A stretch of DNA of 11,583 nucleotides from an uncultured Myxococcales bacterium (GTDB lineage: Bacteria; Myxococcota_A; Bradymonadia; REDH01). The stretch is taken from positions 1-11,583 of the forward strand of contig CBDUJZ010000161.1 of the NCBI GenBank assembly GCA_965367675.1. The letters run 5' to 3'. A program made the translations under genes and the position numbers. Under the pieces are notes generated by a model. The model was not told the origin of the DNA and did no database searches. It saw only the letters and a program-made list of their open reading frames with translations. This document shows positions 1-11,583 of this stretch, piece after piece. The number at the start of each line of letters is the position of its first letter. Within the stretch, counting starts at the first letter, position 1.

Positions 1-3000
1 GCGCCATCGGCCGCTTTGCTCCGCTGCCGCTGATGCGCAGACGCCAGCCGCTGGTCGATGTTTCGCAGCACCGGCGCGATCTCCTGCCCCAGGCTCGGCG
101 TCGGCCGGTTCAGGCTCGAGGCGATGGCGTCGAGCTTGGCCAGCAGCGGCCCCGTCCACGCCGATGGGTCCGCCGCCGGCGCCGGTCGACTAGCCACTGC
201 GGCATCGGCAATCGTGGTCTGAATGCCCTGCACACCCTGGATGAGTCCACCCATCGCGCCCGTCATCCGACTCACCGGGTCATCCTCCGCGCCGCCCATC
301 ATCTTGCGACGCGCGAACTCAGCCTTGATGCCCTCCCAACGCGTCTTCTCCTCGGCGGACATCGTGCCGCGCATCTCGGCGAGCTTGAGCAGGTTCTGCT
401 CGGCCCCCACGGTCAGCGTCTGAGACTCGCCCAGGTAGTGGTCCGTGAGCAGCGCCTGCACCTCTTTTTCGTTCATCGCCGGCACGATCTTCTCGGCGAT
501 TTTGTTCATGTTTCGATAGCTGCCCTGGAGCTGGAACTTGGGCTCCGTGCGGTACTCGTCGGCCTGCGCAGCCGAGCGGATGTACTGCAGGTTGACGGCC
601 AGCAGCAGGTCGCGCGCGGCGAACATATGACGCAGCACACCCTGCATCTCGGCGAGCTCCACAGCGCTGTACGCGTGGCTCAGCTCGCTGGTCTGCACCT
701 GCTTGCCCTGCGCCATCTCGACGATGCGATACGTGTCCTCGAGCCCGCGCGCGGCGAGCGGCGCGAGCACCGGGTTCGACGTGAGCGCGTTCTCCACATA
801 GCTCAGCGCGAACTGCTCCTCGCGCCCGTCGAGCACATCGCCCAAGTTGTACGTGTCCGCGCGGTTAGCGAGCATGTCCGGGATTTGAAACTTGTCGCCC
901 GACTCCGTGTACGGGTTGCCCGCCATGACGACGATGAACTTCTTGCCCCGCAGGTCGTACGTCCGCGTCTTGCCGTTCCACACACCCTCGATGCGGCGCG
1001 TGGCGTCGCACAGCGAGATGAACTTCTGCAGGAACTCGGGGTGCGTGTGCTGGATGTCGTCCAGGTACAGCATCACGTTGCTGCCCATCTCGAACGCCAG
1101 GTTCACCTTGAGGACTTCTTGCCGCGCGGTGGCGTTGGGCGCCTCGTCCGGGTCGAGCGAATGCACACCGTGGCCGAGCGACGGGCCGTTGATCTTCATG
1201 AAGACCAAGCCGAGCCGATTGGCCACGTACTCCATGAGCGTGGTCTTACCGTAGCCGGGCGGCGAGATGAGCAGCAGCAGGCCCATCAGGTCGGTGCGTT
1301 TTGCCGCGCCGAGCGCACCGATTTGCTTGGCCAAGTTGTCGCCGATGATCGGCAAATACACTTCGTTAATCAGGCGGTTACGGACGAACGAGCTCATCAC
1401 GCGCGGCATGTACTCGTCGAGCCGCAGGCGCTCCCGTTCGCGCTCCACCAGCGCCTGTCGCATGGCCCGGTACGCCCGGTAGGCCGGCACGCGCTCCCGC
1501 ACGAACTGACGCAGTCGCCCCAAGAACTCATCGAGCCGCAACGACATCGTCTGCGACGCGATCCGAGGGTGTTGCCCCAGCAGACCCTCCACCTTCGCGG
1601 TGAGCGACGCGCTGCTCGTCTCACGCTCCAAACGTGAGCCGGTGAGCAGCAGCGCAGCCGCCTCAGGGACCGCGTGCGCCATGGCGGAGAACGCGCTCCC
1701 CGGCGCGCCAACCAACGCGCGCAGCCACGCCAGCGCCACCTCGACCTGGTCGGCGACGCGGCCCTCCAGCTGGCCCAAGTCGTCTTCCAAAACCGCGCGT
1801 CCGCCGTGGCCATCCAGGTGCTTGTGCAGCCCCTCGACGAGCGCCACCGCGTCCGCGCTCGTCGCGAACCGCGGGCGGTCGTTCATCAGCTCTTCGACCA
1901 GGTACGCGCCGGCGTCATGCGCGTCCTCAACGCGTGGCCAGCTCGCGCCGGGCGAGGCGTCGACCAGCTCTGCATCCTCGACCCACGCCGCGATCGCGGT
2001 GCCAATATCCTGCGCCAGCTCGCGCTGCACTTCGCTCTCGCTGAACGCGTCTCGCACCCGTCGAGCGTTGCGCGCGCGGCGCTCCCAAGCGTCCCGCAGC
2101 TTCGCATTCTCGTCCGCATCCAACACGGCCCAGAACAGACACGCCAGCGCGCGCGGCCCCGCACCAAACCGCAGCAGACCGGCGTGCTGTCGCAGCTGCA
2201 GCACCTTCTGCAAAATCAGCGTCGCGTCGGCGTCATGCAGACCCCGCTCGTAGCCCTCGTCATACCGCTGACCGGCCTCGTCGCGGACCAACTTCGACAG
2301 CCCGTCTGAAGACAGCGCAGCCTCTCGCAGCGACGCCATCGACGCACCGCCGATGCCCCCCTCGGCCGCGAAAAGCAGCGTCGCAGCCAGGTACTCGCCC
2401 CGGTACACCTCGGGCGTCTCCGACACCAAGTTCTGCCCCCAAAACGCGCGCGTCTCCAGGAACTCCGGGTCCGAGATCATCTCGTAGAACCCCGTGCCAC
2501 CCAGGTGCAGCGCCATGGCGCCTTCTTTAGGTACCACGGTCAGGTCCAGCGGCTGCGTGTTCACGCTGAACTTGTGCTTGCCGAGCTTGATCGTGTTCGC
2601 GCCGTCTTCGAACAAATCGGCGCGATCGCGCTGGCCGCGCATGGCGTCCTGACGCGTCGACTTGAGCTTCGAGAGCAGCTCATCGGCTTTGACGCTGTCG
2701 CCCAGATCGCGCAGCTGCTCCGCCACTTGGCGCAGCTTCATCACCATCGGATCAGCGGCAAAATACGCGTTGAGCGCGTCCGCTCCGTCTGCCGCGGCGC
2801 TCCGGCGCGCCACGCTCGACATGATACGCTCCGCCGCTCCGACCAGGCTCTCCACCCGCCGCTGACGCTGCTCCAGCAGAGTCTGCTTCTTGGCCTCGAA
2901 CGCGTCCACGACCTCGCCGCGCTTCACGGCCAGGTCGGTCAGGTACTCGTCGAACTCACTGAAGCGCCCTTCCAACTCTTCGAGCTGCAGCAACAGCCGC

Positions 3001-5183
3001 GACAGCTGCTCGTCGCACTTCTCCGGCGAATCGCTCAGCGACAGACCGCTCTGCACCGTCTGGCCGAACAGCGTGAACTGCGCGCCGAACTCCGCGCGGC
3101 CTTCGCGACCCGCGATCTCCTTGCGGTGCGCTTCCAACGTGGCGCGCACGCGGTTCACCTGACCGAACACCTCGCTCACCCCTTCCAGGATGGTGGTGCG
3201 CGCGGTCGGGTCGTCAACCTCAAGGCCAGCGATGACCTCGCTGAGCACCTCGAGTCCGGTGCCGACCTTGTCGATCTCGTCTCGAATCGCGTTCGCGTCA
3301 GACGTCTTCTCGATCGTCTTGATCGCCGCCTCTTGCTTGGTCAGCGACGCTACGAGCGGGGCCAACGACTCGGCGCCGAGCATGAACTTCACGCACGCGT
3401 GGCTCACCTCGTCGAACTTCGCGACGGTCTGCTCTTCGAGCGCGTCGATGCGCGCCAGGTCCACGTAACGAATGTCGCGCAGCGTGATCAGCTGCCCGCG
3501 GTGCGTCCGCAGTCCAGACAGCGCTTCCATGAAACCTTGCACAGACTTCAGGCTGTCCGGCAGCACGCGGTCCACGGCCTCCACGTGTCTCGCGGAGGCC
3601 TCCTGCAGCGCCACGCTGGCCTGCCGCTGGAGCGCGACCACCTTCTCGAACTCGTCGACGATGAGCTCAGACGTCCGGTTGATGCTCTCCAGCGTCTCCG
3701 CCAGCCCCTCCGCCTCGGGCGACCCGAGCCAGTAGAAGTTGTCGAGCATGCGCCGGTTGGCCGAGATCAGGTCCTCGTACAGCCGCCGCGTCGGCGTCGC
3801 GTTGTCGATCATGCGGGCGATCGACAGCCCCTCCGAGATGCCTCGCACCAGCTCCGGGTTGCCGATGCGCGTGTAAAACGAGTCCTCCGTGGGGGCGCTC
3901 GCCGCGAACTCGGCCGTCACGAACGGCGTGGTCCACACCTGCATCGGGTGCACGCGCGTGGGCTCCTGAATCTCGGAGCGGAACACCACCAGGCGGCCGT
4001 CGTCGAACAGCGAGTAGCCGTTGCACACCAACTGCGCCTGCACCTCTTTGCGGATCAGATTGTACGGCAGCAGCAGGTAGCGGCCCTCGGTGGCCGTGTA
4101 GAACACGTACAGCACGTCTTCGCCGTTGGGCGACTTGACCTGCGCATGGAACTGAAGCCCCGAGGGCGCCTCGCCGAAAATCTTGTGGTCGCCGGACTGC
4201 AGATAATAGCCGCCCGGGAAGATGATGCCGTGCTCTTCCGGCAACTCCAGACACGCGTGACCGATGGCGTCGATGCGCTTCACCGACTGCGCGCGCGGGT
4301 TGTACACAAGGTGCCGCCACACCTCTTCGTTATAGGGGCGCACGCGCACCAAAATGAGCCCGCCAATCTTGGCGTACTCGATGCGCGCGTCGTCCAGCGT
4401 CTGGTTCGCGTCGTTGACCGGCTCAGCGTAAATGCCCTTGCCGTCCTCGGTGTTGTTCTCGATCTTGACCGTCAGGTCGCCGCCCACCGCCTCGACGAAC
4501 AGCTCGTCCAGAATCGACACGTGGGGATGCCGCCCCGCCACATGATCCTCGCGCGTGGTAGCGATCCACGAGAACGAGTGGGAGGCCGAGAACACGTGGT
4601 CGCGCTCACCGCGGTTGTCCACGTATTGCGGCCGCCCGTCCGGCATCACGTTCCAGCGGAACACGCGCAGGTCGCGGTCGCCCTTGCCGTAGCGGAACAC
4701 CGCCAGCAGCTTGCCGTCACGCGCGCGCAGCTGCTCCAACTCCGTCTCGCGATAGTACTTGTACAGCTCGCCGAAGTCCTTTCGGAACGCCGGGTCGGCC
4801 AGGAAACCGCCGGCCGAGGTGTCCATATCACCGACCGGGAACTCGATGCCCTCCGGCGTCTCCTCCATCGTGTGCACGCTGAACACATCGCCCAGCGCCA
4901 CGTCCTGCTTGAGGCCGAGCAACACGTTGTAGCCGAACAGCAAATTGCCGCCCACGTGCAGGATGTCGCGCGGCAGACAGTTGTGCTCCGTGCGGACGCG
5001 GCTCTGCGCGCGCACGGCCAGCTCACTGGAGCCGAACGCTTCGGTGCGGGCGGTGTTCAGCCGCTCCGCGGACGTGGCCAGCGTCTGGCCAAGCGCGACT
5101 AGGCGCGCACGGATTACGTCGTAGTTGCCGGCGTCAATGCCGTCCGGCGACACGCTTCCTTCAACTTCGGGATCGGCGCTCAT
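1..5183 (-). CDS. Giant protein with a C-terminal MoxR/CbbQ-like AAA+ ATPase domain; at least 1727 codons in the window, 3' end runs off the left edge (no stop seen)
   Basis: Translating the minus strand by hand from the ATG at 5183..5181 (MSADPEVEGSV...) gives one open frame all the way to position 1. It is absent from the ORF track only because it has no stop in the window. All other minus ORFs listed in 1-5183 are in the other two frames. An in-frame TAA lies 10 codons upstream (5213..5211). Walker A is ...LLLISPPGYGKTTLMEYV... (plus-strand ccgcccggctacggtaagacc reverse-complemented at ~1240-1262; Lys at about aa 1313). Walker B is ...VMLYLDDIQHTHPEF... (~1052-1075). A MoxR-type segment ...KKFIVVMAGNPYTESGDKFQIPDMLANRADTYNLGD... 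parallels MoxR ...[26 protein letters not shown].... The ~1150 aa N-terminal to the ATPase contain a beta-rich stretch (RVFRWNVMPDG..., GYYLQSGDHKIFGE...) followed by a long helical, coiled-coil-like stretch. A further ~350 aa follow the ATPase and continue out of the window. Confidence 0.85.
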   Translation of the reverse strand, partial: MSADPEVEGSVSPDGIDAGNYDVIRARLVALGQTLATSAERLNTARTEAFGSSELAVRAQSRVRTEHNCLPRDILHVGGNLLFGYNVLLGLKQDVALGDVFSVHTMEETPEGIEFPVGDMDTSAGGFLADPAFRKDFGELYKYYRETELEQLRARDGKLLAVFRYGKGDRDLRVFRWNVMPDGRPQYVDNRGERDHVFSASHSFSWIATTREDHVAGRHPHVSILDELFVEAVGGDLTVKIENNTEDGKGIYAEPVNDANQTLDDARIEYAKIGGLILVRVRPYNEEVWRHLVYNPRAQSVKRIDAIGHACLELPEEHGIIFPGGYYLQSGDHKIFGEAPSGLQFHAQVKSPNGEDVLYVFYTATEGRYLLLPYNLIRKEVQAQLVCNGYSLFDDGRLVVFRSEIQEPTRVHPMQVWTTPFVTAEFAASAPTEDSFYTRIGNPELVRGISEGLSIARMIDNATPTRRLYEDLISANRRMLDNFYWLGSPEAEGLAETLESINRTSELIVDEFEKVVALQRQASVALQEASARHVEAVDRVLPDSLKSVQGFMEALSGLRTHRGQLITLRDIRYVDLARIDALEEQTVAKFDEVSHACVKFMLGAESLAPLVASLTKQEAAIKTIEKTSDANAIRDEIDKVGTGLEVLSEVIAGLEVDDPTARTTILEGVSEVFGQVNRVRATLEAHRKEIAGREGRAEFGAQFTLFGQTVQSGLSLSDSPEKCDEQLSRLLLQLEELEGRFSEFDEYLTDLAVKRGEVVDAFEAKKQTLLEQRQRRVESLVGAAERIMSSVARRSAAADGADALNAYFAADPMVMKLRQVAEQLRDLGDSVKADELLSKLKSTRQDAMRGQRDRADLFEDGANTIKLGKHKFSVNTQPLDLTVVPKEGAMALHLGGTGFYEMISDPEFLETRAFWGQNLVSETPEVYRGEYLAATLLFAAEGGIGGASMASLREAALSSDGLSKLVRDEAGQRYDEGYERGLHDADATLILQKVLQLRQHAGLLRFGAGPRALACLFWAVLDADENAKLRDAWERRARNARRVRDAFSESEVQRELAQDIGTAIAAWVEDAELVDASPGASWPRVEDAHDAGAYLVEELMNDRPRFATSADAVALVEGLHKHLDGHGGRAVLEDDLGQLEGRVADQVEVALAWLRALVGAPGSAFSAMAHAVPEAAALLLTGSRLERETSSASLTAKVEGLLGQHPRIASQTMSLRLDEFLGRLRQFVRERVPAYRAYRAMRQALVERERERLRLDEYMPRVMSSFVRNRLINEVYLPIIGDNLAKQIGALGAAKRTDLMGLLLLISPPGYGKTTLMEYVANRLGLVFMKINGPSLGHGVHSLDPDEAPNATARQEVLKVNLAFEMGSNVMLYLDDIQHTHPEFLQKFISLCDATRRIEGVWNGKTRTYDLRGKKFIVVMAGNPYTESGDKFQIPDMLANRADTYNLGDVLDGREEQFALSYVENALTSNPVLAPLAARGLEDTYRIVEMAQGKQVQTSELSHAYSAVELAEMQGVLRHMFAARDLLLAVNLQYIRSAAQADEYRTEPKFQLQGSYRNMNKIAEKIVPAMNEKEVQALLTDHYLGESQTLTVGAEQNLLKLAEMRGTMSAEEKTRWEGIKAEFARRKMMGGAEDDPVSRMTGAMGGLIQGVQGIQTTIADAAVASRPAPAADPSAWTGPLLAKLDAIASSLNRPTPSLGQEIAPVLRNIDQRLASAHQRQRSKAADG

Positions 5184-5276: not shown

Positions 5277-7376
5277 TCAGTCGATGCCGAGCTCTTTCGC
5301 CTTCTCCATCAGCGCAGCGAGCTTGGCCGAGTCGACCTCTCCGGACTTGGAGGCGAGCTTGGCGAGCAGCGCCGTCACCGACAGGTTCTTGAGCGTCTCC
5401 GAGTTCTCGGACGCGCCCGCCAGCAGGCCCTTCACGTCGTCGCGCAGGTTCGAATCGCCGTCCAGGTAGCCGCCGAGCACCTTCTGCGCCGTCGGCGAAG
5501 TCTCCATCACGTTGTCCATGGCGTTGCTCACACTCATGGCCTTGACGAACTTGTCGAAGAACTGGCCGTCGCCGCCCACGATCTGGATCTTGGCCTCCTC
5601 GAACGCCTTGCCCATGACCGCCGCTTGGTGCTCCGCCATACGCTCCTGCGTGAGCAGCTGCGCCAGCGCGATCTCCTTCTGTTGCTCCAAACGGATGCGG
5701 TATTCCTCGTGCTCGCGACCCGCGCCGTCCAGCTCGAGCATCGCCTTCGCCTTCTCGCGCAGACCGCTCGCCTCGGCGACCAGTCGCTTCTCGATCGCGT
5801 CGGCCTCGGCCACACCGCGACGCTCGATGGTCTGCGCTTCGGCCTCGTCCACACGAATCCGCGCCATGCCCTTGGCTTCGGTGCCCTCGGCCTCGGCGCT
5901 CATCGTCTCGCGCGTCACCTTAGCCTCGGCCATGCCCTGCTTCTCGATCGCCATCGCGTTGGCTTCCTTGACCTTGACCTCGGCCAGGCCCTGCGCGGCG
6001 ACCTCGGCCTGCACACCCTCGGCCAGGCGAATCTTGCCCTTGGCCAGCGCGTCGGCGGCCTCCAGCTCGGCCTCGGCACCAATGATGCGCTCTTGCGCCT
6101 GGTGCTTGGCGACCTGTTGCGACGCCTCGGCCGCTTTGATCGCCTTGACCAGCTCGGCCTGCGCGTCACCTTCGGCGGTCACAACCTTGGCGTCCTTGTG
6201 ACGCGTCGCGTCCGCCACGAGCCGCAGGTCTTTGATGCGCTCCTCTTCTTCGGCGACGGTCTTGTCGACGGCGATACGCGCGCGCACCACGTCGGCGATC
6301 TCCTTCTTCTCGCGCTCGAGTTCCTTCTCCTTGGCGATGCGCATCAGCTCGACCTCGCGCTCACGCTCGATCTGCTTCAGGTCCTCCGCCTTTTGCACCT
6401 CGACGGTCTCCATCACCACGATACGCTCGCGCTGCTTGGTCGCCACGTCGATGTTGCGCTGCATCTCTTGCTCGCGCTTCTTGACCTCTTCTTGGGCCAC
6501 TTGGCGCGCCAGCTCGGTCTCCTTGGACTCAGAGATCTTGTAGCGGCTCGCCTCGTTCTGCTCGCGGGTCTGCGCCACGTCGATCTCGCGGGCCTTGCGG
6601 GCCTCGGCCTCGGCGCGCTGCTGGTCGTAGCGGAACACAGCCTCGTCGGCGGTCAGGTCCTGCTGACCGATGTCCATCCGCTCTTTCTGCTTCAGCTCGT
6701 TCGTCTGCACGTTCTGCGCCGCGGTCATCTCGGTGATCTTCCGGATGCCCTGCGCGTCGAGAATGTTGGAGGGGTCGAGCCGGTTCAGCGGCGTCTGCTC
6801 CAGGTAGTCGATGGCCGCGTCCTCGAGCACGTAGCCGTTCAGGTCCTTGCCGATGACCGAGATGATGTCGTCTCGGAACTCGTCCCGCTTGGTGTACAAC
6901 TCCTCGAATTGCAGCCGCTTACCGACCGTCTTGAGCGCCTCGGAGAACTTGGCGGCGAACAGCGTCTCGAGCGTGGCGTGGTCCGACGCGCGCTGGCAGC
7001 CGATCGACTGCGCGACCTTGAGCACGTCCTCACCCGTCTTGTTCACCCGAACGAAGAACGTGACCTTGATATCGGCGCGGATGTTGTCCTCGCAGATCAG
7101 GCCGTCCTCGCCGCGTCGGTCGACCTCGATGGTCTTGACGGAGATATCCATGATCTCCGCGCGGTGAATGATGGGCAGCACGGTCGCGCCGGTGAACGTG
7201 ACGGTCGGCTCCGCCTTCATCGTGTTCACGATGAGCGCCTTGCCCTGGTCCACCTTGCGGTAAAACTGAGCGACCATCGCGAGCAGGCCCACGACGAGCA
7301 CAGCCACGACAGCGACGATCAACAGCGCGGCTTGCGCGAGAGTGCTTAGAGCGAAGAAGAAGATGGGTGCAGACAT
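5277..7376 (-). CDS. Flotillin family protein (SPFH/band-7 domain, YqiK/FloT-like), 699 aa
   Basis: ATG at 7376..7374 with a GAGG motif ~10 nt upstream on the minus strand. N-terminal hydrophobic membrane anchor (MSAPIFFFALSTLAQAALLIVAVVAVLVVGLLAMV). SPFH core: ...TVLPIIHRAEIMDISVKTIEVDRRGEDGLICEDNIRADIKVTFFVRVNKTGEDVLKVAQSIG.... Then a long charged coiled-coil with Glu/Ala-rich 'EA repeat' region (EAELEAADALAKGKIRLAEGVQAEVAAQG...) and a C-terminal tail. The overall architecture matches what I recall of E. coli YqiK and B. subtilis FloT. Stop TGA at 5279..5277. Confidence 0.9.
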   Translation of the reverse strand: MSAPIFFFALSTLAQAALLIVAVVAVLVVGLLAMVAQFYRKVDQGKALIVNTMKAEPTVTFTGATVLPIIHRAEIMDISVKTIEVDRRGEDGLICEDNIRADIKVTFFVRVNKTGEDVLKVAQSIGCQRASDHATLETLFAAKFSEALKTVGKRLQFEELYTKRDEFRDDIISVIGKDLNGYVLEDAAIDYLEQTPLNRLDPSNILDAQGIRKITEMTAAQNVQTNELKQKERMDIGQQDLTADEAVFRYDQQRAEAEARKAREIDVAQTREQNEASRYKISESKETELARQVAQEEVKKREQEMQRNIDVATKQRERIVVMETVEVQKAEDLKQIEREREVELMRIAKEKELEREKKEIADVVRARIAVDKTVAEEEERIKDLRLVADATRHKDAKVVTAEGDAQAELVKAIKAAEASQQVAKHQAQERIIGAEAELEAADALAKGKIRLAEGVQAEVAAQGLAEVKVKEANAMAIEKQGMAEAKVTRETMSAEAEGTEAKGMARIRVDEAEAQTIERRGVAEADAIEKRLVAEASGLREKAKAMLELDGAGREHEEYRIRLEQQKEIALAQLLTQERMAEHQAAVMGKAFEEAKIQIVGGDGQFFDKFVKAMSVSNAMDNVMETSPTAQKVLGGYLDGDSNLRDDVKGLLAGASENSETLKNLSVTALLAKLASKSGEVDSAKLAALMEKAKELGID

Positions 7377-7481: not shown

Positions 7482-8327
7482 TCACGACTTCCGGGGGCTC
7501 GACCGGCTTTGCACCGGCGCCGTCTCAGCGGCCTCGACGCCGGCGTCACGGACAATGGCATCCAGGGCGGCCAGCTCGGCCTCGAGATCCCCGTCGCCAT
7601 CCGACGCCACAAAGTGGTCCATCGACTCGATCTGGTAGGCTTCTTCGCCCGCCACATACTCGACCACAAGCGCGGCATCTCCACGCTTGAGGGTGTTGGG
7701 TTCGGCGCACCGCACCTCGATGAGCAGCCCGGCGCCGCCATCGCGGACCTCGGCCTGGCCAAACGTCTCGGTCACGCGGCCGGTGCGTACCTCGCAGACC
7801 ACGCCCACGGAGTCGGCGCGCGACGCGGCCTCCTGCGTCTCGAACAGCTTACCGAGCGGACGAACGCTGCGCTTGGTGAGGGGCACGGCGATGCCGATGG
7901 AGAGCAGGAATGTGACCGACGCGATGACCGATGCGGGAAGCGCGAGCTCGGCGCGGGCCGCGAAGTGCATGCACAGGAAGCTGGCGATCCAGCACCAGAG
8001 CACCAGCACGGAGAGCACGACCGTCGCGGGCGCTTTGTCGAGCGCCAGCGCGTGCACCACATGCCACGTAAAGCTGTGGGAGCCTTGGCCGCTGCCGACG
8101 CCCTCGGCACCATCGAGCGCACCGTCGGCGCCCTCCAATGCACCGTCCAAAGCGCCGTCGACGGCACCATCCACGCCACCGTCCAGCACGCCGTCCAGGT
8201 CGAAATCCAGCGACTCGACACCGATGGCGCCCGCGATGACGAACAGCCAGTAGAGGACGATCAGCCCCATCAGAACCGTGAAGATTCCGGTCGGGAGTGT
8301 CAGCATCTCTGTGAGCAGCGGGCTCAT
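7482..8327 (-). CDS. NfeD-like / YqiJ-like inner-membrane protein (N-terminal TM helices, C-terminal OB-fold), ~281 aa
   Basis: ATG at 8327..8325; the track's first 'M' at 8330 is a TTG. Two hydrophobic segments (GIFTVLMGLIVLYWLFVIAGAIG; TVVLSVLVLWCWIASFLCM... VIASVTFLLSIGIAV). The C-terminal beta-rich segment ...GVVCEVRTGRVTETFGQAEVRDGGAGLLIEVRCAEPNTLKRGDAALVVEY... is typical of the NfeD short-form OB-fold. It sits directly upstream of a flotillin gene, as in yqiJ-yqiK and nfeD-floT pairs. Stop TGA at 7484..7482. Confidence 0.8.
   Translation of the reverse strand: MSPLLTEMLTLPTGIFTVLMGLIVLYWLFVIAGAIGVESLDFDLDGVLDGGVDGAVDGALDGALEGADGALDGAEGVGSGQGSHSFTWHVVHALALDKAPATVVLSVLVLWCWIASFLCMHFAARAELALPASVIASVTFLLSIGIAVPLTKRSVRPLGKLFETQEAASRADSVGVVCEVRTGRVTETFGQAEVRDGGAGLLIEVRCAEPNTLKRGDAALVVEYVAGEEAYQIESMDHFVASDGDGDLEAELAALDAIVRDAGVEAAETAPVQSRSSPRKS
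8100..8210 (-). repeat. Period-12 nt imperfect tandem repeat (about 8 units) inside the nfeD-like CDS, encoding (x-h-D-G)n
   Basis: Plus-strand units ggcaccatcgag / cgcaccgtcggc / gccctccaatgc / accgtccaaagc / gccgtcgacggc / accatccacgcc / accgtccagcac / gccgtccaggtc. They translate on the minus strand to DLDGVLDGGVDGAVDGALDGALEGADGALDGAEG, sitting between TM1 and TM2 of the NfeD-like protein. Confidence 0.55.
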
Positions 8328-8381: not shown

Positions 8382-8786
8382 TTACTCGGGCGTGCGGTGA
8401 TCGATGGAGACCGAGTTGATGCAGAAGCGCACGCCCGTCTCGGTGGGGCCGTCGTTGAACACGTGACCCAGGTGAGCGTCGCAGCTGGCGCAGGTGACCT
8501 CGGTGCGCGTCATGCCGTGGCTGACGTCTTCGATGAACTTCACCGAGCCCTCGACCGCGCGGTCGAACGAAGGCCAACCGCAGTGCGCATCAAACTTGGT
8601 GTCCGACGTAAACAGCAGCGCGTCGCAGCAGATGCAGCGGTACGTGCCGTCCTCGAACTGGTTCCAGTACTTGCCGGTAAACGGCCGCTCGGTCGCCGCG
8701 TTCTGCGTGACTTCGAATGCGAGGTCGCCCAGACGTTCGCGCAACGCGGACGTGGCGGACGGAATGGAACGGGTGTCGTCACTCAT
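8382..8786 (-). CDS. msrB: Peptide-methionine (R)-S-oxide reductase MsrB, 134 aa
   Basis: Internal ATG at 8786..8784, preceded by a strong SD: AAGGAG (plus 8793-8798 reverse-complemented) with a 6-nt spacer. The track's 215-aa version extends upstream without support. Both zinc CxxC pairs are present ([11 protein letters not shown] and [13 protein letters not shown]). The resolving-Cys motif HCGWPSF and the catalytic-Cys motif [11 protein letters not shown] are the SelR/MsrB hallmarks. Stop TAA at 8384..8382. Confidence 0.92.
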
Positions 8787-8954: not shown

Positions 8955-8969
8955 GCAACGTCCGTGCCA
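8955..8969 (-). promoter_or_regulatory. Candidate sigma-54 (RpoN) -24/-12 promoter driving the msrB-nfeD-flotillin-AAA+ gene string
   Basis: The reverse complement of plus 8951-8970 is TTGGCACGGACGTTGCGAGG, i.e. TGGCACG-N4-TTGC. This matches the RpoN consensus TGGCAC-N5-TTGC with exact GG/GC spacing. Predicted TSS is near plus 8943, giving a ~157-nt leader before the msrB ATG at 8786. It lies in the divergent intergenic region shared with a GAFTGA-containing bEBP gene. Confidence 0.55.
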
Positions 8970-9070: not shown

Positions 9071-10870
9071 ATGCTTCAATCCAACGTATTGCTCCGGGAC
9101 GTGCTCCCCATCGCGCGCACGCACACCGACGGCGCGGTCGCCGGACATGTGAAGGCCGAGCTGTCGAGTCGGCTGGAGTTGGACGGGGTGCCGGTGGATA
9201 CGGTCGACGCGTTCTGCCAGGCGTTCGAGGTGTTCTCCCGCGCGCTGATCTCGGCGTCGATCCCGACCATCTATGGCCCGGAGTTCGCGGAGACCCTGGC
9301 CAGCATTCTATTCGGGCGCGACCCGCTGCTCACGCTCCTGAGCCCGCAGCTGCCCAACCGCCGCATCCTGATCGTGGGCGAGCGCGGCACTGGAAAGGAG
9401 TCGGTCGCCCGCGTGCTCAGCGCCGGCCTCGCCGCCTTTGGCGGCGGCCGCCCGGTGGTGGCGGTCAACGCGGCCGCGCTCCCGGACACGCTGCTCGAGT
9501 CGACGCTGTTCGGGCACGTGCGGGGTGCGTTCACCGGCGCGACTCGGGCGCGCACGGGGCTCATGTCGGAGCTGCATCCCGGCGGCGTGTTGTTCTTCGA
9601 CGAGGCGGGCGAAGCGTCGCCCGCGCTGCAGGCCAAGCTGCTGCGGGTGTTCCAGACCGGCGAGTACGCCCCCGTGGGCGCGCCCGAGGCACCGTCGCGG
9701 GCCGACTATCACGTGGTCGCCGCCACCAACGCCCCGCTCAAGGCGCTGCAGCTCGGCACCGCCATGCGCGCGGACCTGTTCGACCGCCTCGCCGCGCCGC
9801 TGATCGAGCTGCCGCCGCTGCGCACGTTGCTGCACGACCAAACGCGGGGCCGCGCCATCTTCCAGTGTCTGGCGATGGGCGTGATTCGGGAACTCGGCGC
9901 GACCGGGCGGACCGGCGCCGGCACGCCATCTGTGGTCCGCCGCGCGGGCGACCGGCGGGAGATCAACTTTGAGCTGTGGGCGACCCCGCGCGCCGCCCGA
10001 ATCGCCCGGAGCGTTCAAGAAGGCACCCAGGGCTACGCGTGGCCCGGCAACCTGCGCGAGGCGGCGCAGCGCATCCGTCAAACGCTGTTCATGGGCTCGG
10101 CGGCGCTCAGACCGACGAACCATCGCGCGGCAAGCGCGGCGCCCAAACCACCCGCAAACGCCATCGTGTTGACGGTGCCGGAGTCCGGCACGTTGAAGAC
10201 ACAATTGGAGGCCGCCGAGCGCCAACTGTACGCCCGCGCGGCCACGCAGCACGAGTCGATCATCGCGGTCGCCGATGCGCTCGGGGTCGCCCGGCAAACG
10301 GCATCCCGGCGCCTGAGCTACTTCGAGATCCCGGCGCCTGGTAGTTCGACCGATACGCCGACGAGCACGCCCCACGCCACCGTCCCGATGCCCACCCGAA
10401 GGCCGCTCGGCACGCCCAACGCCACCAACCACCCGGGCTCGGACGCCATGGGTCATCGCCCGCCGGACGCGTCCGTGTCGGCAGCGGTGTTCTCGCCGTT
10501 CACCGCGCCGCGCATCTCCCGCCGCTTGCTGGCGATTATGGAGCGCAGCGCGCCGCAACCGGACAACCTGACGGCAGCCGTGGTCATGCACGCCGAGGCG
10601 CTGCGCGCGGCGGTCGGCGACTATCCGTTTGTGGACCTCAAGCTCGTTTCGTCCATCGAGCACACGCTGCTGGAGCTCATCAACGACATCCTGCCGTCGC
10701 ACTCTGAACCCCACGTCCGGCTGGTGGCCGCTGCGGTCGCCTACTTTGTGGAGGTCGACGACGAGGACCACGACCTGTCGTCCGCGATCGGGCTGGATGA
10801 CGACGTGCGGGTGGTGAACGAGGTGGCCCGTGTGTTGGGGCGCGACGACCTGGAGATCCGCGTGGAGTGA
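9071..10870 (+). CDS. Sigma-54-dependent transcriptional activator (bEBP) with atypical architecture: no receiver/sensor N-domain, AAA+ sigma-54 domain, Fis-type HTH, then a P/T/S-rich linker and an extra acidic C-terminal domain
   Basis: ATG at 9071; in-frame TAA at 9044-9046; no obvious SD. Walker A is ILIVGERGTGKESVARVL (9361-9400). The GAFTGA loop is ESTLFGHVRGAFTGATRARTG (GAFTGA at nt 9524-9541). Walker B is GVLFFDEAGEASPALQAKLLRVFQTGEYAPVG. Sensor I is HVVAATNAPL. R-finger region is DLFDRLAAPLIELPPLR. Sensor II is YAWPGNLREAAQRI. The Fis-like HTH is ...HESIIAVADALGVARQTASRRLSYFEI at about aa 385-425. After it come a low-complexity stretch (PAPGSSTDTPTSTPHATVPMPTRRPLGTPNATNHPGSD) and a ~120-aa domain ending ...YFVEVDDEDHDLSSAIGLDDDVRVVNEVARVLGRDDLEIRVE. 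Only ~65 aa precede the AAA+ domain. Confidence 0.88.
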   Translation: MLQSNVLLRDVLPIARTHTDGAVAGHVKAELSSRLELDGVPVDTVDAFCQAFEVFSRALISASIPTIYGPEFAETLASILFGRDPLLTLLSPQLPNRRILIVGERGTGKESVARVLSAGLAAFGGGRPVVAVNAAALPDTLLESTLFGHVRGAFTGATRARTGLMSELHPGGVLFFDEAGEASPALQAKLLRVFQTGEYAPVGAPEAPSRADYHVVAATNAPLKALQLGTAMRADLFDRLAAPLIELPPLRTLLHDQTRGRAIFQCLAMGVIRELGATGRTGAGTPSVVRRAGDRREINFELWATPRAARIARSVQEGTQGYAWPGNLREAAQRIRQTLFMGSAALRPTNHRAASAAPKPPANAIVLTVPESGTLKTQLEAAERQLYARAATQHESIIAVADALGVARQTASRRLSYFEIPAPGSSTDTPTSTPHATVPMPTRRPLGTPNATNHPGSDAMGHRPPDASVSAAVFSPFTAPRISRRLLAIMERSAPQPDNLTAAVVMHAEALRAAVGDYPFVDLKLVSSIEHTLLELINDILPSHSEPHVRLVAAAVAYFVEVDDEDHDLSSAIGLDDDVRVVNEVARVLGRDDLEIRVE

Positions 10871-10894: not shown

Positions 10895-11583
10895 CTATCC
10901 GGCCACGCGCCACACCTCGGCGAACGGCGTCTGCGCGTAGGTCCCGCTGAACTCCACCACGTCGTCGGCCGTGAACCACAGGCCATCCGCGCCCGGGCCG
11001 TCGTAGGACACCATCGTCCGCAGGTTGCCCGACCGGTCGAACGTGCGCGTGGTGTAGTCATCCAGCTCATCGTCGCCGGTGCCCCAAACGCCGTCCGCGC
11101 CCGGTCCGTCCAGCGTCGCATCGAAACGCAGGCCGCCATTTTCGTCGATGTCGCGAATGCGACCGAAGCCGATCACGTCGTCCGCGGTAAACGGGATCCC
11201 GTCGTCGCCGAGCGCAACGGTGTGCCGTTCGATGTACCGGGTGGCGGACGTGTACTCCCACGCGATCGCGCCACCGCCGCCCACGAGGAACGTGTCGTCG
11301 TCGGTGAGCCAGATGCCGTCGGCGCCTGGATCGCTGCTGATGCCAAACCGGATGACGCGCCCTTCATCGTCGAGCTCCTGCCAGTCGACGCGCGAAATCG
11401 TGTCGTCCCCGGGGCTGTTCCCGCAGTCCGAGGTATCCCAGGTCTCGTCGGGCCCCCAATCGCTGTGGTGCACGGTGCCTTCAATAGACTCCCCTACCGG
11501 TCCAGCATCGGCGTCGGCGACGGTATCCGGCGAGGCGTCGCCGGGGACATCTAGGTCGCCGGTGTCGCCACCGATCACGTCGG
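10895..11583 (-). CDS. Asp/Gly/Trp-rich tandem-repeat protein, probably secreted or surface and Ca-binding-like; C-terminal 229 codons only (5' end outside window)
   Basis: Minus-strand frame stays open to the right window edge; the 'M' at 11578 in the track is an internal GTG. A ~35-40 aa repeat recurs at least four times: DPGADGIWLTDDD / GDDGIPFTADD / DGPGADGVWGTGDDELDD / DGPGADGLWFTADD. One EF-hand-like DxDxNG loop is present (DIDENGG). Stop TAG at 10897..10895. Convergent with the bEBP gene, 24 nt apart. Confidence 0.6.
   Translation of the reverse strand, partial: DVIGGDTGDLDVPGDASPDTVADADAGPVGESIEGTVHHSDWGPDETWDTSDCGNSPGDDTISRVDWQELDDEGRVIRFGISSDPGADGIWLTDDDTFLVGGGGAIAWEYTSATRYIERHTVALGDDGIPFTADDVIGFGRIRDIDENGGLRFDATLDGPGADGVWGTGDDELDDYTTRTFDRSGNLRTMVSYDGPGADGLWFTADDVVEFSGTYAQTPFAEVWRVAG

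What the first reader, a model, noticed from the sequence alone, without database searches (positions are those of the whole stretch)
1..5183. Giant single ORF of at least 1727 codons with a C-terminal MoxR-type AAA+ ATPase, co-directional with and immediately downstream of flotillin
Seen in sequence: one uninterrupted minus-strand frame from 5183 to the window edge. Only a short stretch resembles a known fold: Walker A GPPGYGKTT, Walker B LYLDDIQ, and a MoxR-like AGNPYTESG...IPDMLANRADTY segment. About 1150 N-terminal residues (beta-rich then long helical) and a C-terminal extension of at least 350 residues have no motif I can name. Established knowledge: MoxR AAA+ proteins are chaperone-like remodellers. 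SPFH proteins pair with AAA+ machines (HflK/C cages FtsH) and ESCRT-III-like PspA/Vipp1 polymers are remodelled by AAA+ ATPases. Inference: this protein may load, remodel or disassemble flotillin assemblies, or couple them to a client. A flotillin-MoxR fusion partner of this size is not something I recognise as described.
Basis: partly seen in the sequence, partly recalled or inferred. Interest (0 to 1): 0.85.

Follow-up and report, generated by a model that had tools for sequence, protein, structure and literature searches.

The report
Flotillin-linked giant AAA+ ATPase (BacE family)
The giant gene is real and always sits next to a flotillin gene, but it belongs to an already catalogued, functionally untested family (Pfam DUF3686, BacE/PA3728 of Pseudomonas aeruginosa) whose link to flotillin and phage-shock genes was published in 2024.

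Summary
The minus-strand frame 5183..3 is open for 1727 codons. On the source contig it is a 1946-aa gene.

It is not an unrecognised protein:
- Its N-terminus matches Pfam DUF3686 (E = 1e-194) and DUF7902.
- It has more than 6,400 homologues, which NCBI names "DNA repair ATPase".
- It is 50% identical over 1709 aa to P. aeruginosa PA3728/BacE.

In all 79 reference-genome loci that have upstream DNA, a YqiK-type flotillin gene lies upstream on the same strand. Most loci also have a YqiJ-type short NfeD gene before it. Gammaproteobacteria add DUF2170 and PspA upstream, and often a PLD gene downstream.

Ravi et al. 2024 described exactly this operon, with a "beta-propeller + coiled-coil + AAA-ATPase" protein, and its abbreviated PspA-less form. 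Wallart et al. 2024 showed that bacABCDEF is co-transcribed.

Structure models show a propeller, long helices, an unmatched helical domain, an AAA+ core and a disordered tail. The AAA+ core is closest to dynein, midasin, CbbQ and NorQ, but only narrowly.

The likely role is ATP-driven remodelling at flotillin/PspA membrane assemblies. That is inferred, not shown.

Specific to this lineage, msrB leads the operon, behind an exact sigma-54 promoter and a divergent activator gene.

This is a new member of a known kind, of moderate-to-low interest.

The parts
1..5183 (-). Codons 1-1727 of a 1946-codon gene for a BacE/PA3728-type DUF3686 AAA+ protein. The last 219 codons lie beyond the window edge.
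   Evidence: Open frame. Identical 1946-aa protein P0001 on L001. 50% identity over 1709 aa to the P. aeruginosa orthologue.
3732..5081 (-). aa 35-484: N-terminal helix plus beta-propeller, Pfam DUF3686.
   Evidence: PF12458, E = 1e-194. The AF2 model (pLDDT 85.7) has about 29 strands between aa 56 and 418. Foldseek hits are to propellers such as the clathrin terminal domain, WD40 proteins and prolyl oligopeptidase, E about 1e-5.
2613..3731 (-). aa 485-857: bundle of long helices (coiled-coil-like), containing DUF7902 at aa 606-689.
   Evidence: PF25472, E = 4e-25. Modelled helices are up to 58 residues long.
1434..2606 (-). aa 860-1250: small beta element, large helical domain and long linker helix. 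No family match.
   Evidence: Confident AF2 model with block pLDDT mostly above 90. No Pfam hit even at E <= 10. No fold hit other than to the AAA+ part.
834..1406 (-). aa 1260-1450: AAA+ alpha/beta core. Walker A SPPGYGKTT is at nt 1239-1265 (Lys1313), Walker B VMLYLDD at nt 1056-1076, with sensor-1 Asn1423 and Arg1441.
234..833 (-). aa 1451-1650: conserved helical lid and C-terminal helical region.
   Evidence: Helices in the model. Invariant motifs such as QGSYRNM and HY.GE.QTL.
3..233 (-). aa 1651-1727: start of the variable, low-complexity C-terminal tail, which continues to aa 1946 off-window.
   Evidence: Identity falls to 6-24% and gaps rise. pLDDT is 50-70.
5277..7376 (-). Flotillin-type SPFH membrane protein (YqiK/PaFlo3-like), 699 aa: N-terminal TM segment, SPFH domain, long Glu/Ala-rich coiled coil.
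   Evidence: hhalign of the family profile against E. coli YqiK gives probability 99.9%, E = 1.6e-32. 4 of 32 orthologues hit Band_7. NCBIfam FloT, E = 1e-5.
7482..8327 (-). YqiJ/YuaF-type short NfeD membrane protein, 281 aa.
   Evidence: hhalign against E. coli YqiJ gives probability 93.9%, E = 1.6e-7. Found upstream of the flotillin gene in 71 of the 81 loci held. One orthologue hits YqiJ_N.
8382..8786 (-). msrB (SelR), the first gene of the gene string in this lineage.
   Evidence: PF01641 on the called gene. The same position is occupied by SelR in the close relatives L084 and L085.
8955..8969 (-). Sigma-54 promoter, -24/-12 elements: TGGCACGGACGTTGC.
   Evidence: Exact consensus match, 0.03 expected by chance in the window. 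It lies in the intergenic region about 170 nt upstream of the msrB ATG.
9071..10870 (+). Divergently transcribed sigma-54 enhancer-binding protein with a GAFTGA motif and an HTH.
   Evidence: Sigma54_activat, E = 2.5e-39, and a weaker HTH_50 match, 24.5 bits, below its cut-off of 27. Matches PspF, NorR and RtcR models over the AAA core only.

Best explanation
Identity (near certain): the ORF is the first 1727 of 1946 codons of a soluble cytoplasmic AAA+ protein of the DUF3686 family. It is an orthologue of P. aeruginosa BacE/PA3728. It is the last conserved gene of a yqiJ(short nfeD)-flotillin-ATPase operon found in Myxococcota, Actinomycetota, Gammaproteobacteria, Planctomycetota and Bacteroidota.

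Anatomy (shown by models and profiles): N-terminal helix, a beta-propeller of about 7 blades, a bundle of long helices, an unmatched helical domain, a single AAA+ module with Walker A and Walker B (DD) motifs and a pre-sensor-1 hairpin, a helical lid, and a variable disordered tail.

Mechanism (inferred, not shown): the AAA+ modules form a ring. The propeller and coiled-coil arms dock on the cytoplasmic face of the flotillin/NfeD membrane assembly. ATP hydrolysis then assembles, disassembles or extracts subunits or clients of the flotillin scaffold, and of PspA where PspA is encoded alongside. This would be part of an envelope or oxidative stress response.

In this organism the unit is the abbreviated, PspA-less form. 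It appears to be expressed with msrB from a sigma-54 promoter controlled by the adjacent enhancer-binding protein.
For: Family membership:
- DUF3686 at 647.6 bits and DUF7902 at 88.1 bits.
- More than 6,400 homologues of the same length and domain set.
- 50% identity over 1709 aa to the P. aeruginosa protein. That protein sits in DUF2170-PspA-213 aa-688 aa-giant-PLDc_2, followed by YaeQ, RecJ and an M4 peptidase, which places it at PA3728.

Linkage:
- Flotillin upstream on the same strand in 79 of 79 informative loci; YqiJ-like gene in 71.
- Flotillin and YqiJ identity confirmed by hhalign.
- Correlated divergence, r = 0.89.
- 19 gammaproteobacterial loci add DUF2170 and PspA_IM30.

Published support:
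- The operon and its abbreviated form are described in PMC11237479.
- bacA-F are co-transcribed, and BacB-F rise 6- to 13-fold in a bacA mutant (PMC10948618).
- PA3728-PA3732 are induced by phage infection (PMC12041424).

Cytoplasmic location: no TM segment, maximum KD19 = 1.42.

Regulation here: exact sigma-54 promoter with 0.03 expected by chance, a GAFTGA enhancer-binding protein, and no terminator-like sites between the genes.
Against: - No experiment on any family member shows ATPase activity, oligomeric state, or binding to flotillin or PspA.
- Deleting the P. aeruginosa flotillin PaFlo3 gave almost no phenotype, about 20% less biofilm (PMC13086221).
- Walker B is an invariant Asp-Asp rather than Asp-Glu, so hydrolysis may be slow or unusual.
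- The most conserved segment after sensor 1 (aa 1424-1451) is modelled with pLDDT below 50.
- The sigma-54 promoter is not detectable upstream of the operon in most other loci, including P. aeruginosa in my scan.
- Conserved gene order shows a functional link. It does not show the direction or nature of the action.
Confidence: 0.55

Rival explanations
1. It is a DNA repair ATPase, as the database name says. It would act on DNA, perhaps with the PLD-family nuclease-like protein or the HEAT/AlkD-like protein encoded next to it.
For: - Pfam describes DUF3686 as 'ATPase involved in DNA repair', and NCBI names the family 'DNA repair ATPase'.
- A PLDc_2 gene follows the ATPase in 9 gammaproteobacterial loci and in P. 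aeruginosa.
- In this contig a 375-aa HEAT protein with a borderline DNA_alkylation match (20.7 bits against a cut-off of 21) overlaps the ATPase stop codon by 14 nt.
- There are weak RuvB P-loop matches.
Against: - No paper in the library mentions DUF3686 or links this protein to repair.
- No DNA-binding or nuclease domain was found in the protein.
- The RuvB similarity is confined to about 45 residues around the P-loop.
- The invariant neighbours are membrane proteins.
- The AlkD-like gene is in 1 of 81 loci and is absent from the closest relatives.
- PLD-family enzymes also act on phospholipids.
Confidence: 0.05
2. It is the motor or sensor of an anti-phage or other conflict system that acts at the membrane, with flotillin/NfeD as scaffold and, in some lineages, a PLD enzyme as effector.
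For: - PA3728-PA3732 are among the 17 genes up-regulated in all phage-infected samples (PMC12041424).
- Distribution within Pseudomonas is patchy and attributed to horizontal transfer (PMC13086221).
- Occasional copies sit on megaplasmids such as pQBR103.
- A large AAA+ protein plus an optional PLD-family enzyme resembles defence-system logic.
Against: - No significant match to any PADLOC model; only P-loop-level hits at E > 2e-3.
- Absent from phage genomes.
- Only 13 of 72,556 plasmid records carry it.
- Well conserved at 45-60% identity across whole phyla, with a stable gene order.
- Phage induction is also what a membrane-stress (Psp-like) response shows.
- No defence genes appear among the conserved neighbours.
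Confidence: 0.12
3. The ATPase does not act on flotillin. Instead it uses the flotillin microdomain as a platform to unfold, extract or chaperone damaged membrane or membrane-proximal proteins, as an ATP-dependent arm of the ATP-independent holdase activity reported for FloA-NfeD.
For: - The synteny is the same as for the main explanation.
- S. aureus FloA-NfeD is reported to stabilise unfolded proteins during oxidative stress (cited in PMC13086221).
- msrB, a repair enzyme for oxidised proteins, leads the operon here and in the two closest relatives.
- HflK/C-FtsH is a precedent for SPFH cages that house an AAA+ machine (established knowledge).
Against: - No protease or substrate-recognition domain was identified.
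- The pore loops could not be assessed, because the loop regions are modelled with low confidence.
- msrB linkage is confined to one sub-lineage, 1 of 81 reference loci.
Confidence: 0.23

Closest known systems
P. aeruginosa BacE (PA3728 / PA14_16190) of the bacABCDEF operon (Wallart et al. 2024, PMC10948618)
   Same: Orthologue: 50% identity over 1709 aa, with the same DUF3686-DUF7902-AAA architecture. It lies directly downstream of the YqiJ-like BacC and the flotillin BacD.
   Different: - The window's operon lacks bacA (DUF2170), bacB (PspA) and bacF (PLD).
- It starts with msrB instead.
- It has an exact sigma-54 promoter with an adjacent activator gene.
- The protein carries a tail about 200 aa longer.
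'Beta-propeller + coiled-coil + AAA-ATPase' of CesT/Tir-PspA-YqiJ/YuaF-Band-7/flotillin operons and their abbreviated forms (Ravi et al. 2024, PMC11237479)
   Same: Same protein architecture and the same neighbours. The window matches the 'abbreviated operon' those authors report as widespread.
   Different: None in kind. This report adds structure models, the extra unmatched helical domain at aa 860-1250, a tentative AAA+ clade placement, and the msrB/sigma-54 variant.
MoxR-class AAA+ ATPases (CbbQ, NorQ, RavA) and the wider AAA_5 group (dynein, midasin, McrB)
   Same: - Pfam AAA_5 matches 124 of 139 positions above its cut-off.
- The NP....G....P..L.NR motif follows sensor 1.
   Different: - Six times larger than a MoxR protein.
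- Pfam AAA_3 is not matched.
- No VWA partner gene.
- Walker B is DD rather than DE.
- ClpA and ClpB score nearly as well.
HflK/C-FtsH (an SPFH cage enclosing an AAA+ protease)
   Same: An SPFH-family membrane scaffold genetically and functionally coupled to an AAA+ machine (established knowledge).
   Different: - FtsH is membrane-anchored and carries a protease domain. This protein is soluble with no protease domain.
- HflK/C assemble on the periplasmic side. From its single N-terminal TM segment I expect this flotillin's SPFH and coiled-coil regions to be cytoplasmic, which is an inference.
Vps4 acting on ESCRT-III (Snf7/CdvB); PspA and Vipp1 are the bacterial ESCRT-III homologues
   Same: An AAA+ gene linked to a PspA gene in 19 gammaproteobacterial loci. 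A remodelling role has been proposed in the literature.
   Different: - No MIT domain.
- PspA is absent from the window's contig and from most loci.
E. coli YqiJ-YqiK (short NfeD plus flotillin pair)
   Same: The two upstream genes are homologues of this pair.
   Different: The E. coli K-12 locus has no ATPase gene after yqiK.

Membership tests
DUF3686 'DNA repair ATPase' / BacE family | N-terminal DUF3686 domain above Pfam's gathering score | tested here: met
   PF12458 scores 647.6 bits against a cut-off of 25, aa 35-484, covering the full profile.
DUF3686 'DNA repair ATPase' / BacE family | DUF7902 in the helical region and one C-terminal AAA+ module, total length about 1600-2000 aa | tested here: met
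   PF25472 at 88.1 bits, plus AAA and AAA_5. The protein is 1946 aa. Full-length representatives are 1590-2036 aa, always with the domain at the N-terminus.
DUF3686 'DNA repair ATPase' / BacE family | Collinear similarity to P. aeruginosa PA3728/BacE | tested here: met
   50% identity over 1709 aa. The bac context of P0131 was verified.
DUF3686 'DNA repair ATPase' / BacE family | Encoded directly downstream of a YqiJ-like gene and a flotillin gene | tested here: met
   The window's gene order. 79 of 79 informative loci. hhalign against YqiK and YqiJ.
DUF3686 'DNA repair ATPase' / BacE family | A role in DNA repair, as the name implies | not testable with these tools
   No supporting literature and no DNA-related domain. 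The name appears to be an untested label.
MoxR AAA+ ATPases (sensu stricto) | Match to the MoxR-type AAA model (Pfam AAA_3, PF07726) | tested here: not met
   14 bits against a cut-off of 27, covering only 30 residues at the P-loop.
MoxR AAA+ ATPases (sensu stricto) | Nearest solved structures are MoxR proteins | tested here: inconclusive
MoxR AAA+ ATPases (sensu stricto) | Partner protein with a VWA domain encoded alongside | tested here: not met
   The recurrent neighbours I identified are YqiJ-like, flotillin, DUF2170, PspA and PLDc_2. No VWA domain appears in the called genes of L001, L083, L084 or L085. The other recurrent ORF clusters were not scanned against Pfam.
AAA_5 (dynein-related) AAA+ group | Near full-length match to PF07728 above its cut-off | tested here: met
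   29.3 bits against a cut-off of 22, profile positions 2-125 of 139.
Functional AAA+ ATPase | Walker A GxxxxGK[ST], Walker B hhhhDE, sensor-1 polar residue, arginine finger | tested here: inconclusive
   Walker A PPGYGKT, sensor-1 Asn1423 and Arg1441 are invariant. Walker B is an invariant LYLDD, with Asp in place of the catalytic Glu. Activity cannot be judged from sequence.
Flotillin / SPFH (the upstream gene) | SPFH (Band_7) domain followed by a flotillin-type coiled coil; N-terminal membrane anchor | tested here: met
   The protein itself has no Pfam hit. The family profile against E. coli YqiK gives probability 99.9% over 410 columns. 4 of 32 orthologues hit Band_7. A hydrophobic N-terminus is visible in the sequence.
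Psp-type system (bac/YjfIJ class) | A PspA_IM30 gene in the operon | tested here: not met
   No PspA_IM30 hit among the 10 called genes of the 17.8-kb contig, nor in the products scanned directly. It is present in 19 gammaproteobacterial loci. The window holds the abbreviated form.
Psp-type system (bac/YjfIJ class) | Sigma-54 promoter with a PspF-like activator | tested here: met
   Exact TGGCAC-N5-TTGC, 0.03 expected by chance. A divergent GAFTGA enhancer-binding protein. Actual dependence is not testable here.
Known anti-phage defence systems (PADLOC) | Significant match of any operon protein to a defence-system model | tested here: not met
   For the giant protein only P-loop-level hits, IetA at E = 2e-3 and TRIP13 at E = 5e-3. 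None for the flotillin. The NfeD-like gene itself was not scanned.

The most novel reading that the evidence does not exclude
The BacE-type protein is the missing ATP-driven remodeller of bacterial membrane scaffolds. On this reading, a hexameric AAA+ ring with six propeller-tipped coiled-coil arms docks on the cytoplasmic flotillin/NfeD cage. It would disassemble or reshape that cage, and PspA (ESCRT-III-like) polymers where present, doing for bacteria what Vps4 does for ESCRT-III. A 2025 review still states that a Vps4-like ATPase appears absent in bacteria (PMC7619361). The idea itself was raised in general terms by Ravi et al. 2024.
Probability: 0.3. Interest if true: 0.75.

Novelty: new member of a known kind. 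Interest (0 to 1): 0.3.

Why it matters
Bacterial flotillins and PspA form large membrane scaffolds, and how these are assembled and taken apart is unknown. A 2025 review notes that no Vps4-like ATPase is known in bacteria and that Band-7 partners of PspA have undetermined roles.

The DUF3686/BacE family is the obvious candidate motor. In my sample of 79 informative loci it is always encoded next to a flotillin gene, and it occurs in the pathogen P. aeruginosa as part of a virulence- and biofilm-associated operon. No member of the family has been characterised biochemically.

This window adds nothing categorically new to that picture. It does add four things:
- Evidence that the database name 'DNA repair ATPase' is unsupported.
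- A domain map with confident structure models.
- A quantified linkage to flotillin.
- A variant in which the operon is led by msrB and driven by a textbook sigma-54 promoter. That variant points to oxidative or envelope stress as the inducing condition.

Tried and rejected
- **Literature:** searches for 'DUF3686' and for flotillin plus 'DNA repair ATPase' found nothing. The prior art surfaced only through PA3728, the bac cluster and DUF2170.
- **Sequence searches against PDB chains:** the whole protein, and then a profile of the AAA+ module, matched only about 35 residues around the P-loop of p97, NVL, Rix7 and RuvB. These were not informative for clade. The flotillin protein and its family profile found nothing in PDB sequences.
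- **The domain at aa 860-1250:** no Pfam or fold match. It stays unassigned.
- **Sigma-54 promoter as a family-wide feature:** a strict scan found it upstream of the operon in only 2 of 79 loci. A relaxed scan found nothing convincing in 20 gammaproteobacterial loci, including P. aeruginosa. I therefore rejected it as a general feature. Weaker -24/-12-like elements exist in the two closest relatives.
- **The sigma-54 activator, msrB and the AlkD-like gene as conserved partners:** found in 3, 1 and 1 of 81 loci respectively. msrB is conserved only in the window's own sub-lineage.
- **Mobile-element or defence origin:** no PADLOC match, no phage hits, and plasmid hits that are rare and mostly on megaplasmids, chromids or mislabelled chromosomes.
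- **Not possible here:** I could not inspect model coordinates, so the blade count, pore loops and helix-2 insert were judged only from the secondary-structure strings.
Full report
**1. The observation**

Translating window 1-5183 on the minus strand gives 1727 codons with no stop, running off the window edge. A protein 100% identical over this stretch, P0001, is 1946 aa. Its contig is L001, an ENA metagenome assembly of 17,839 nt. By matched gene coordinates, the window is the reverse complement of about L001 positions 2-11584; the exact-substring check returned no match, and I did not follow that up. On L001 the gene occupies 6402-12242, so only the last 219 residues lie off-window.

- Walker A at aa 1307-1315. 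It reads SPPGYGKTT, not GPPGYGKTT. Lys1313 is as predicted.
- Walker B VMLYLDD at aa 1370-1376.
- AGNPYTESGDKFQIPDMLANRADTY at aa 1421-1445.

Homologues are collinear and 1600-2030 aa long. The ORF is therefore a real gene, not a high-GC artefact or a fused frame.

**2. What the protein is**

The N-terminal region is not unnameable. Pfam DUF3686 ('ATPase involved in DNA repair') matches aa 35-484 at E = 1e-194, and DUF7902 matches aa 606-689 at E = 4e-25. The AAA and AAA_5 models match the C-terminal module.

- More than 6,400 proteins match at E <= 1e-10. Most carry no name; NCBI calls them 'DNA repair ATPase' and JGI sometimes 'MoxR-like ATPase'.
- A search of 1.84 billion cluster representatives with aa 1-500 finds 736 clusters at E <= 1e-3 and 251 at E <= 1e-30. 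In full-length members the domain is always N-terminal. This is a single-architecture family.
- A scan of one genome per species found at least 561 relatives. The 80 kept come from Myxococcota, Actinomycetota, Gammaproteobacteria and Planctomycetota.

**3. Neighbours**

In the window the upstream genes on the same strand are:
- a 699-aa protein at 5277-7376;
- a 281-aa multi-TM protein at 7482-8327;
- msrB at 8382-8786.

A sigma-54 activator gene lies divergently at 9071-10870.

Neither the 699-aa protein nor the 281-aa protein has a Pfam hit of its own. Profiles built from their orthologues settle what they are:
- The 699-aa family matches E. coli flotillin YqiK at hhalign probability 99.9%, E = 1.6e-32, over 410 columns. 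4 of 32 orthologues hit Band_7 directly.
- The 281-aa family matches E. coli YqiJ, the short NfeD partner of YqiK, at probability 93.9%, E = 1.6e-7.

Across the 81 loci held:
- A flotillin homologue lies upstream on the same strand in all 79 that have upstream DNA. It is directly adjacent in 77, with tblastn alignments ending 9-800 nt before the start of the ATPase match.
- The YqiJ-like gene precedes the flotillin gene in 71.
- Pairwise identities of the flotillin and the ATPase correlate at r = 0.89 over 2485 pairs. The genes have travelled together.

An unbiased clustering of all ORFs in the loci found only two further recurrent partners, both restricted to Gammaproteobacteria:
- DUF2170 plus PspA_IM30 upstream, in 19 loci;
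- a PLDc_2 gene downstream, in 9 loci.

The sigma-54 activator, msrB and the downstream HEAT gene occur in 3, 1 and 1 of the 81 loci.

**4. Prior art**

Ravi et al. 2024 (PMC11237479; preprint 2020) describe operons that combine the CesT/Tir(DUF2170)-PspA pair with three further genes:
[quoted passage not shown] - (iii) a YqiJ/YuaF protein.

Some of these operons also carry a PLD hydrolase. [quoted passage not shown] Their table lists 'Betapropeller+Coiled-coil+AAA-ATPase'.

Wallart et al. 2024 (PMC10948618) showed by RT-PCR that P. aeruginosa bacABCDEF is one operon with a proposed sigma-54 site. BacB-F rise 6- to 13-fold in a bacA mutant.

I confirmed the P. aeruginosa family member, P0131 (1746 aa, a cluster of 3,222 sequences). 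It sits in DUF2170-PspA-213 aa-688 aa-giant-PLDc_2, followed by YaeQ, RecJ and an M4 peptidase. The gene order matches bacABCDEF as described. From my memory of the PAO1 map (recJ, lasB), this locus is PA3728/BacE. It is 50% identical to the window's protein over 1709 aa.

Other mentions of PA3728:
- It is listed as an 'ATPase' recurrently mutated in cystic-fibrosis isolates (PMC8190622).
- PA3728-PA3732 are induced by phage infection (PMC12041424).
- Deleting the flotillin PaFlo3 had almost no phenotype (PMC13086221).

No paper found here tests the ATPase itself.

**5. Anatomy**

Two AlphaFold2 models, each built on 75 sequences, are confident (pLDDT 85.7 and 85.8).

| Residues | Feature | Evidence |
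|---|---|---|
| 20-50 | N-terminal helix | |
| 56-418 | about 29 beta strands; best Foldseek matches are beta-propellers (clathrin terminal domain, WD40 proteins, prolyl oligopeptidase), E about 1e-5 with low TM-scores, so a generic propeller of about 7 blades | |
| 424-857 | bundle of long helices, up to 58 residues each | |
| 860-1250 | small beta element, large helical domain and long linker helix; no Pfam or fold match | |
| 1260-1450 | AAA+ core with a beta-hairpin before sensor 1 | |
| 1451-1650 | helical lid | |
| about 1650-1946 | variable, low-complexity tail | |

The protein has no TM segment. The AAA+ core is the most conserved part, at 85-89% identity among 16 homologues.

Two oddities:
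- Walker B is an invariant Asp-Asp rather than Asp-Glu.
- The near-invariant segment aa 1424-1451 is modelled with pLDDT below 50.

**6. Is it MoxR-type?**

For:
- Pfam AAA_5, the family that includes dynein, midasin, McrB, CbbQ and NorQ, matches 124 of 139 positions above its cut-off.

Against:
- Foldseek hits are weak and mixed.
- The MoxR-proper model AAA_3 scores 14 bits, on the P-loop alone.
- A profile of the AAA+ module finds no MoxR chain in PDB sequences.
- No VWA partner is encoded nearby.

I call it a divergent AAA+ module nearest the AAA_5 group, not a MoxR family member.

**7. Mechanism**

Shown:
- family membership;
- the domain map;
- a cytoplasmic location, by absence of TM segments;
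- obligatory linkage to a YqiJ/flotillin pair;
- optional linkage to PspA;
- co-transcription and co-regulation in P. aeruginosa, from the literature.

Inferred: the protein oligomerises through its AAA+ module, docks by its propeller and coiled-coil arms on the cytoplasmic flotillin assembly, and uses ATP to assemble, disassemble or extract components. It could act on flotillin or PspA themselves, or on clients held by them.

The rivals:
- The 'DNA repair' label has no support beyond the database name and non-conserved neighbours.
- An anti-phage role is not excluded, given phage induction, patchy distribution and the optional PLD gene. However, there is no PADLOC match, no phage copy, and few copies on mobilisable plasmids.
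- A client-chaperone role on a flotillin platform is the closest rival. The msrB linkage seen here gives it some weight.

**8. Features specific to this window**

- An exact sigma-54 consensus, TGGCACGGACGTTGC, lies at 8969-8955 on the minus strand. 0.03 such matches are expected by chance.
- It is about 170 nt upstream of the msrB start, which has an AAGGAG ribosome-binding site, and faces away from a GAFTGA activator gene.
- No terminator-like site separates msrB, yqiJ, the flotillin gene and the ATPase gene.
- msrB occupies the same position in the two closest relatives with long contigs. Those relatives have weaker -24/-12-like elements.
- The promoter is not a family-wide feature.

**9. 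Verdict**

- The flotillin linkage is real and strong.
- The remodelling idea is reasonable but untested.
- The claim of being undescribed is wrong.

This is a new metagenomic member, probably from Myxococcota, of a known but uncharacterised family, in the already published abbreviated operon form. I score interest at 0.3. The family itself remains a good experimental target.

Noticed in passing
window 8955-8969 (-) and 9071-10870 (+): An exact sigma-54 promoter consensus (0.03 expected by chance) lies in the intergenic region between msrB and a divergent GAFTGA enhancer-binding protein. That protein has an uncharacterised N-terminal region of about 95 aa and a C-terminal extension of about 180 aa. 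The arrangement suggests that msrB-yqiJ-flotillin-ATPase is a sigma-54 operon.
   Followed up: partly
window 8382-8786 (-); L084 3267-3818; L085 3482-3904: msrB (SelR) directly precedes the yqiJ-flotillin-ATPase genes here and in the two closest relatives. It does so in only 1 of 81 reference loci. This is a lineage-specific link between repair of oxidised proteins and the flotillin system.
   Followed up: partly
L001 12229-13356 (beyond the window edge): A 375-aa HEAT-repeat protein overlaps the ATPase stop codon by 14 nt. It has a borderline DNA_alkylation (AlkD-like) match, 20.7 bits against a cut-off of 21. It is not conserved in other loci.
   Followed up: partly
window 1056-1076 (-), aa 1370-1376: Walker B is LYLDD, with Asp in place of the usual catalytic Glu. 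It is invariant in all homologues aligned, which raises the question of how, or how fast, ATP is hydrolysed.
   Followed up: no
window 831-914 (-), aa 1424-1451: The segment PYTESGDKFQIPDMLANRADTYNLGDVL is nearly invariant across phyla but is modelled with pLDDT below 50. It may be ordered only in the oligomer, or with nucleotide or a partner bound.
   Followed up: no
window 1434-2606 (-), aa 860-1250: A confidently modelled helical domain, preceded by a small beta element, has no Pfam match and no fold match in the PDB searches.
   Followed up: partly
L038 15375-16064 and 8 other gammaproteobacterial loci; L083 13260-13952: A PLD-family (PLDc_2, HKD) gene directly follows the ATPase gene. It corresponds to BacF of P. 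aeruginosa. Whether it acts on lipid or on nucleic acid is unknown.
   Followed up: partly
window 10895-11578 (-): A 227-aa ORF (GTG start) contains a repeated motif, D(G)PGADG.W.T.DD, at least three times. It has no Pfam, NCBIfam or PADLOC match.
   Followed up: no
L001 13469-15734; L084 15659-17859: A Cys-rich protein of about 500 aa (Cu-binding_MopE and Dicty_CTDC repeats), followed by a protein of about 235 aa, lies downstream of the operon. The same pair is seen in the 67%-identical relative. This looks like local synteny typical of Myxococcota.
   Followed up: no
plasmid NC_009444.1 (pQBR103, P. fluorescens SBW25) 92452-97269: A full-length family member (47% identity) is carried on a 425-kb environmental megaplasmid. 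This is one of only 13 plasmid records with a match.
   Followed up: no
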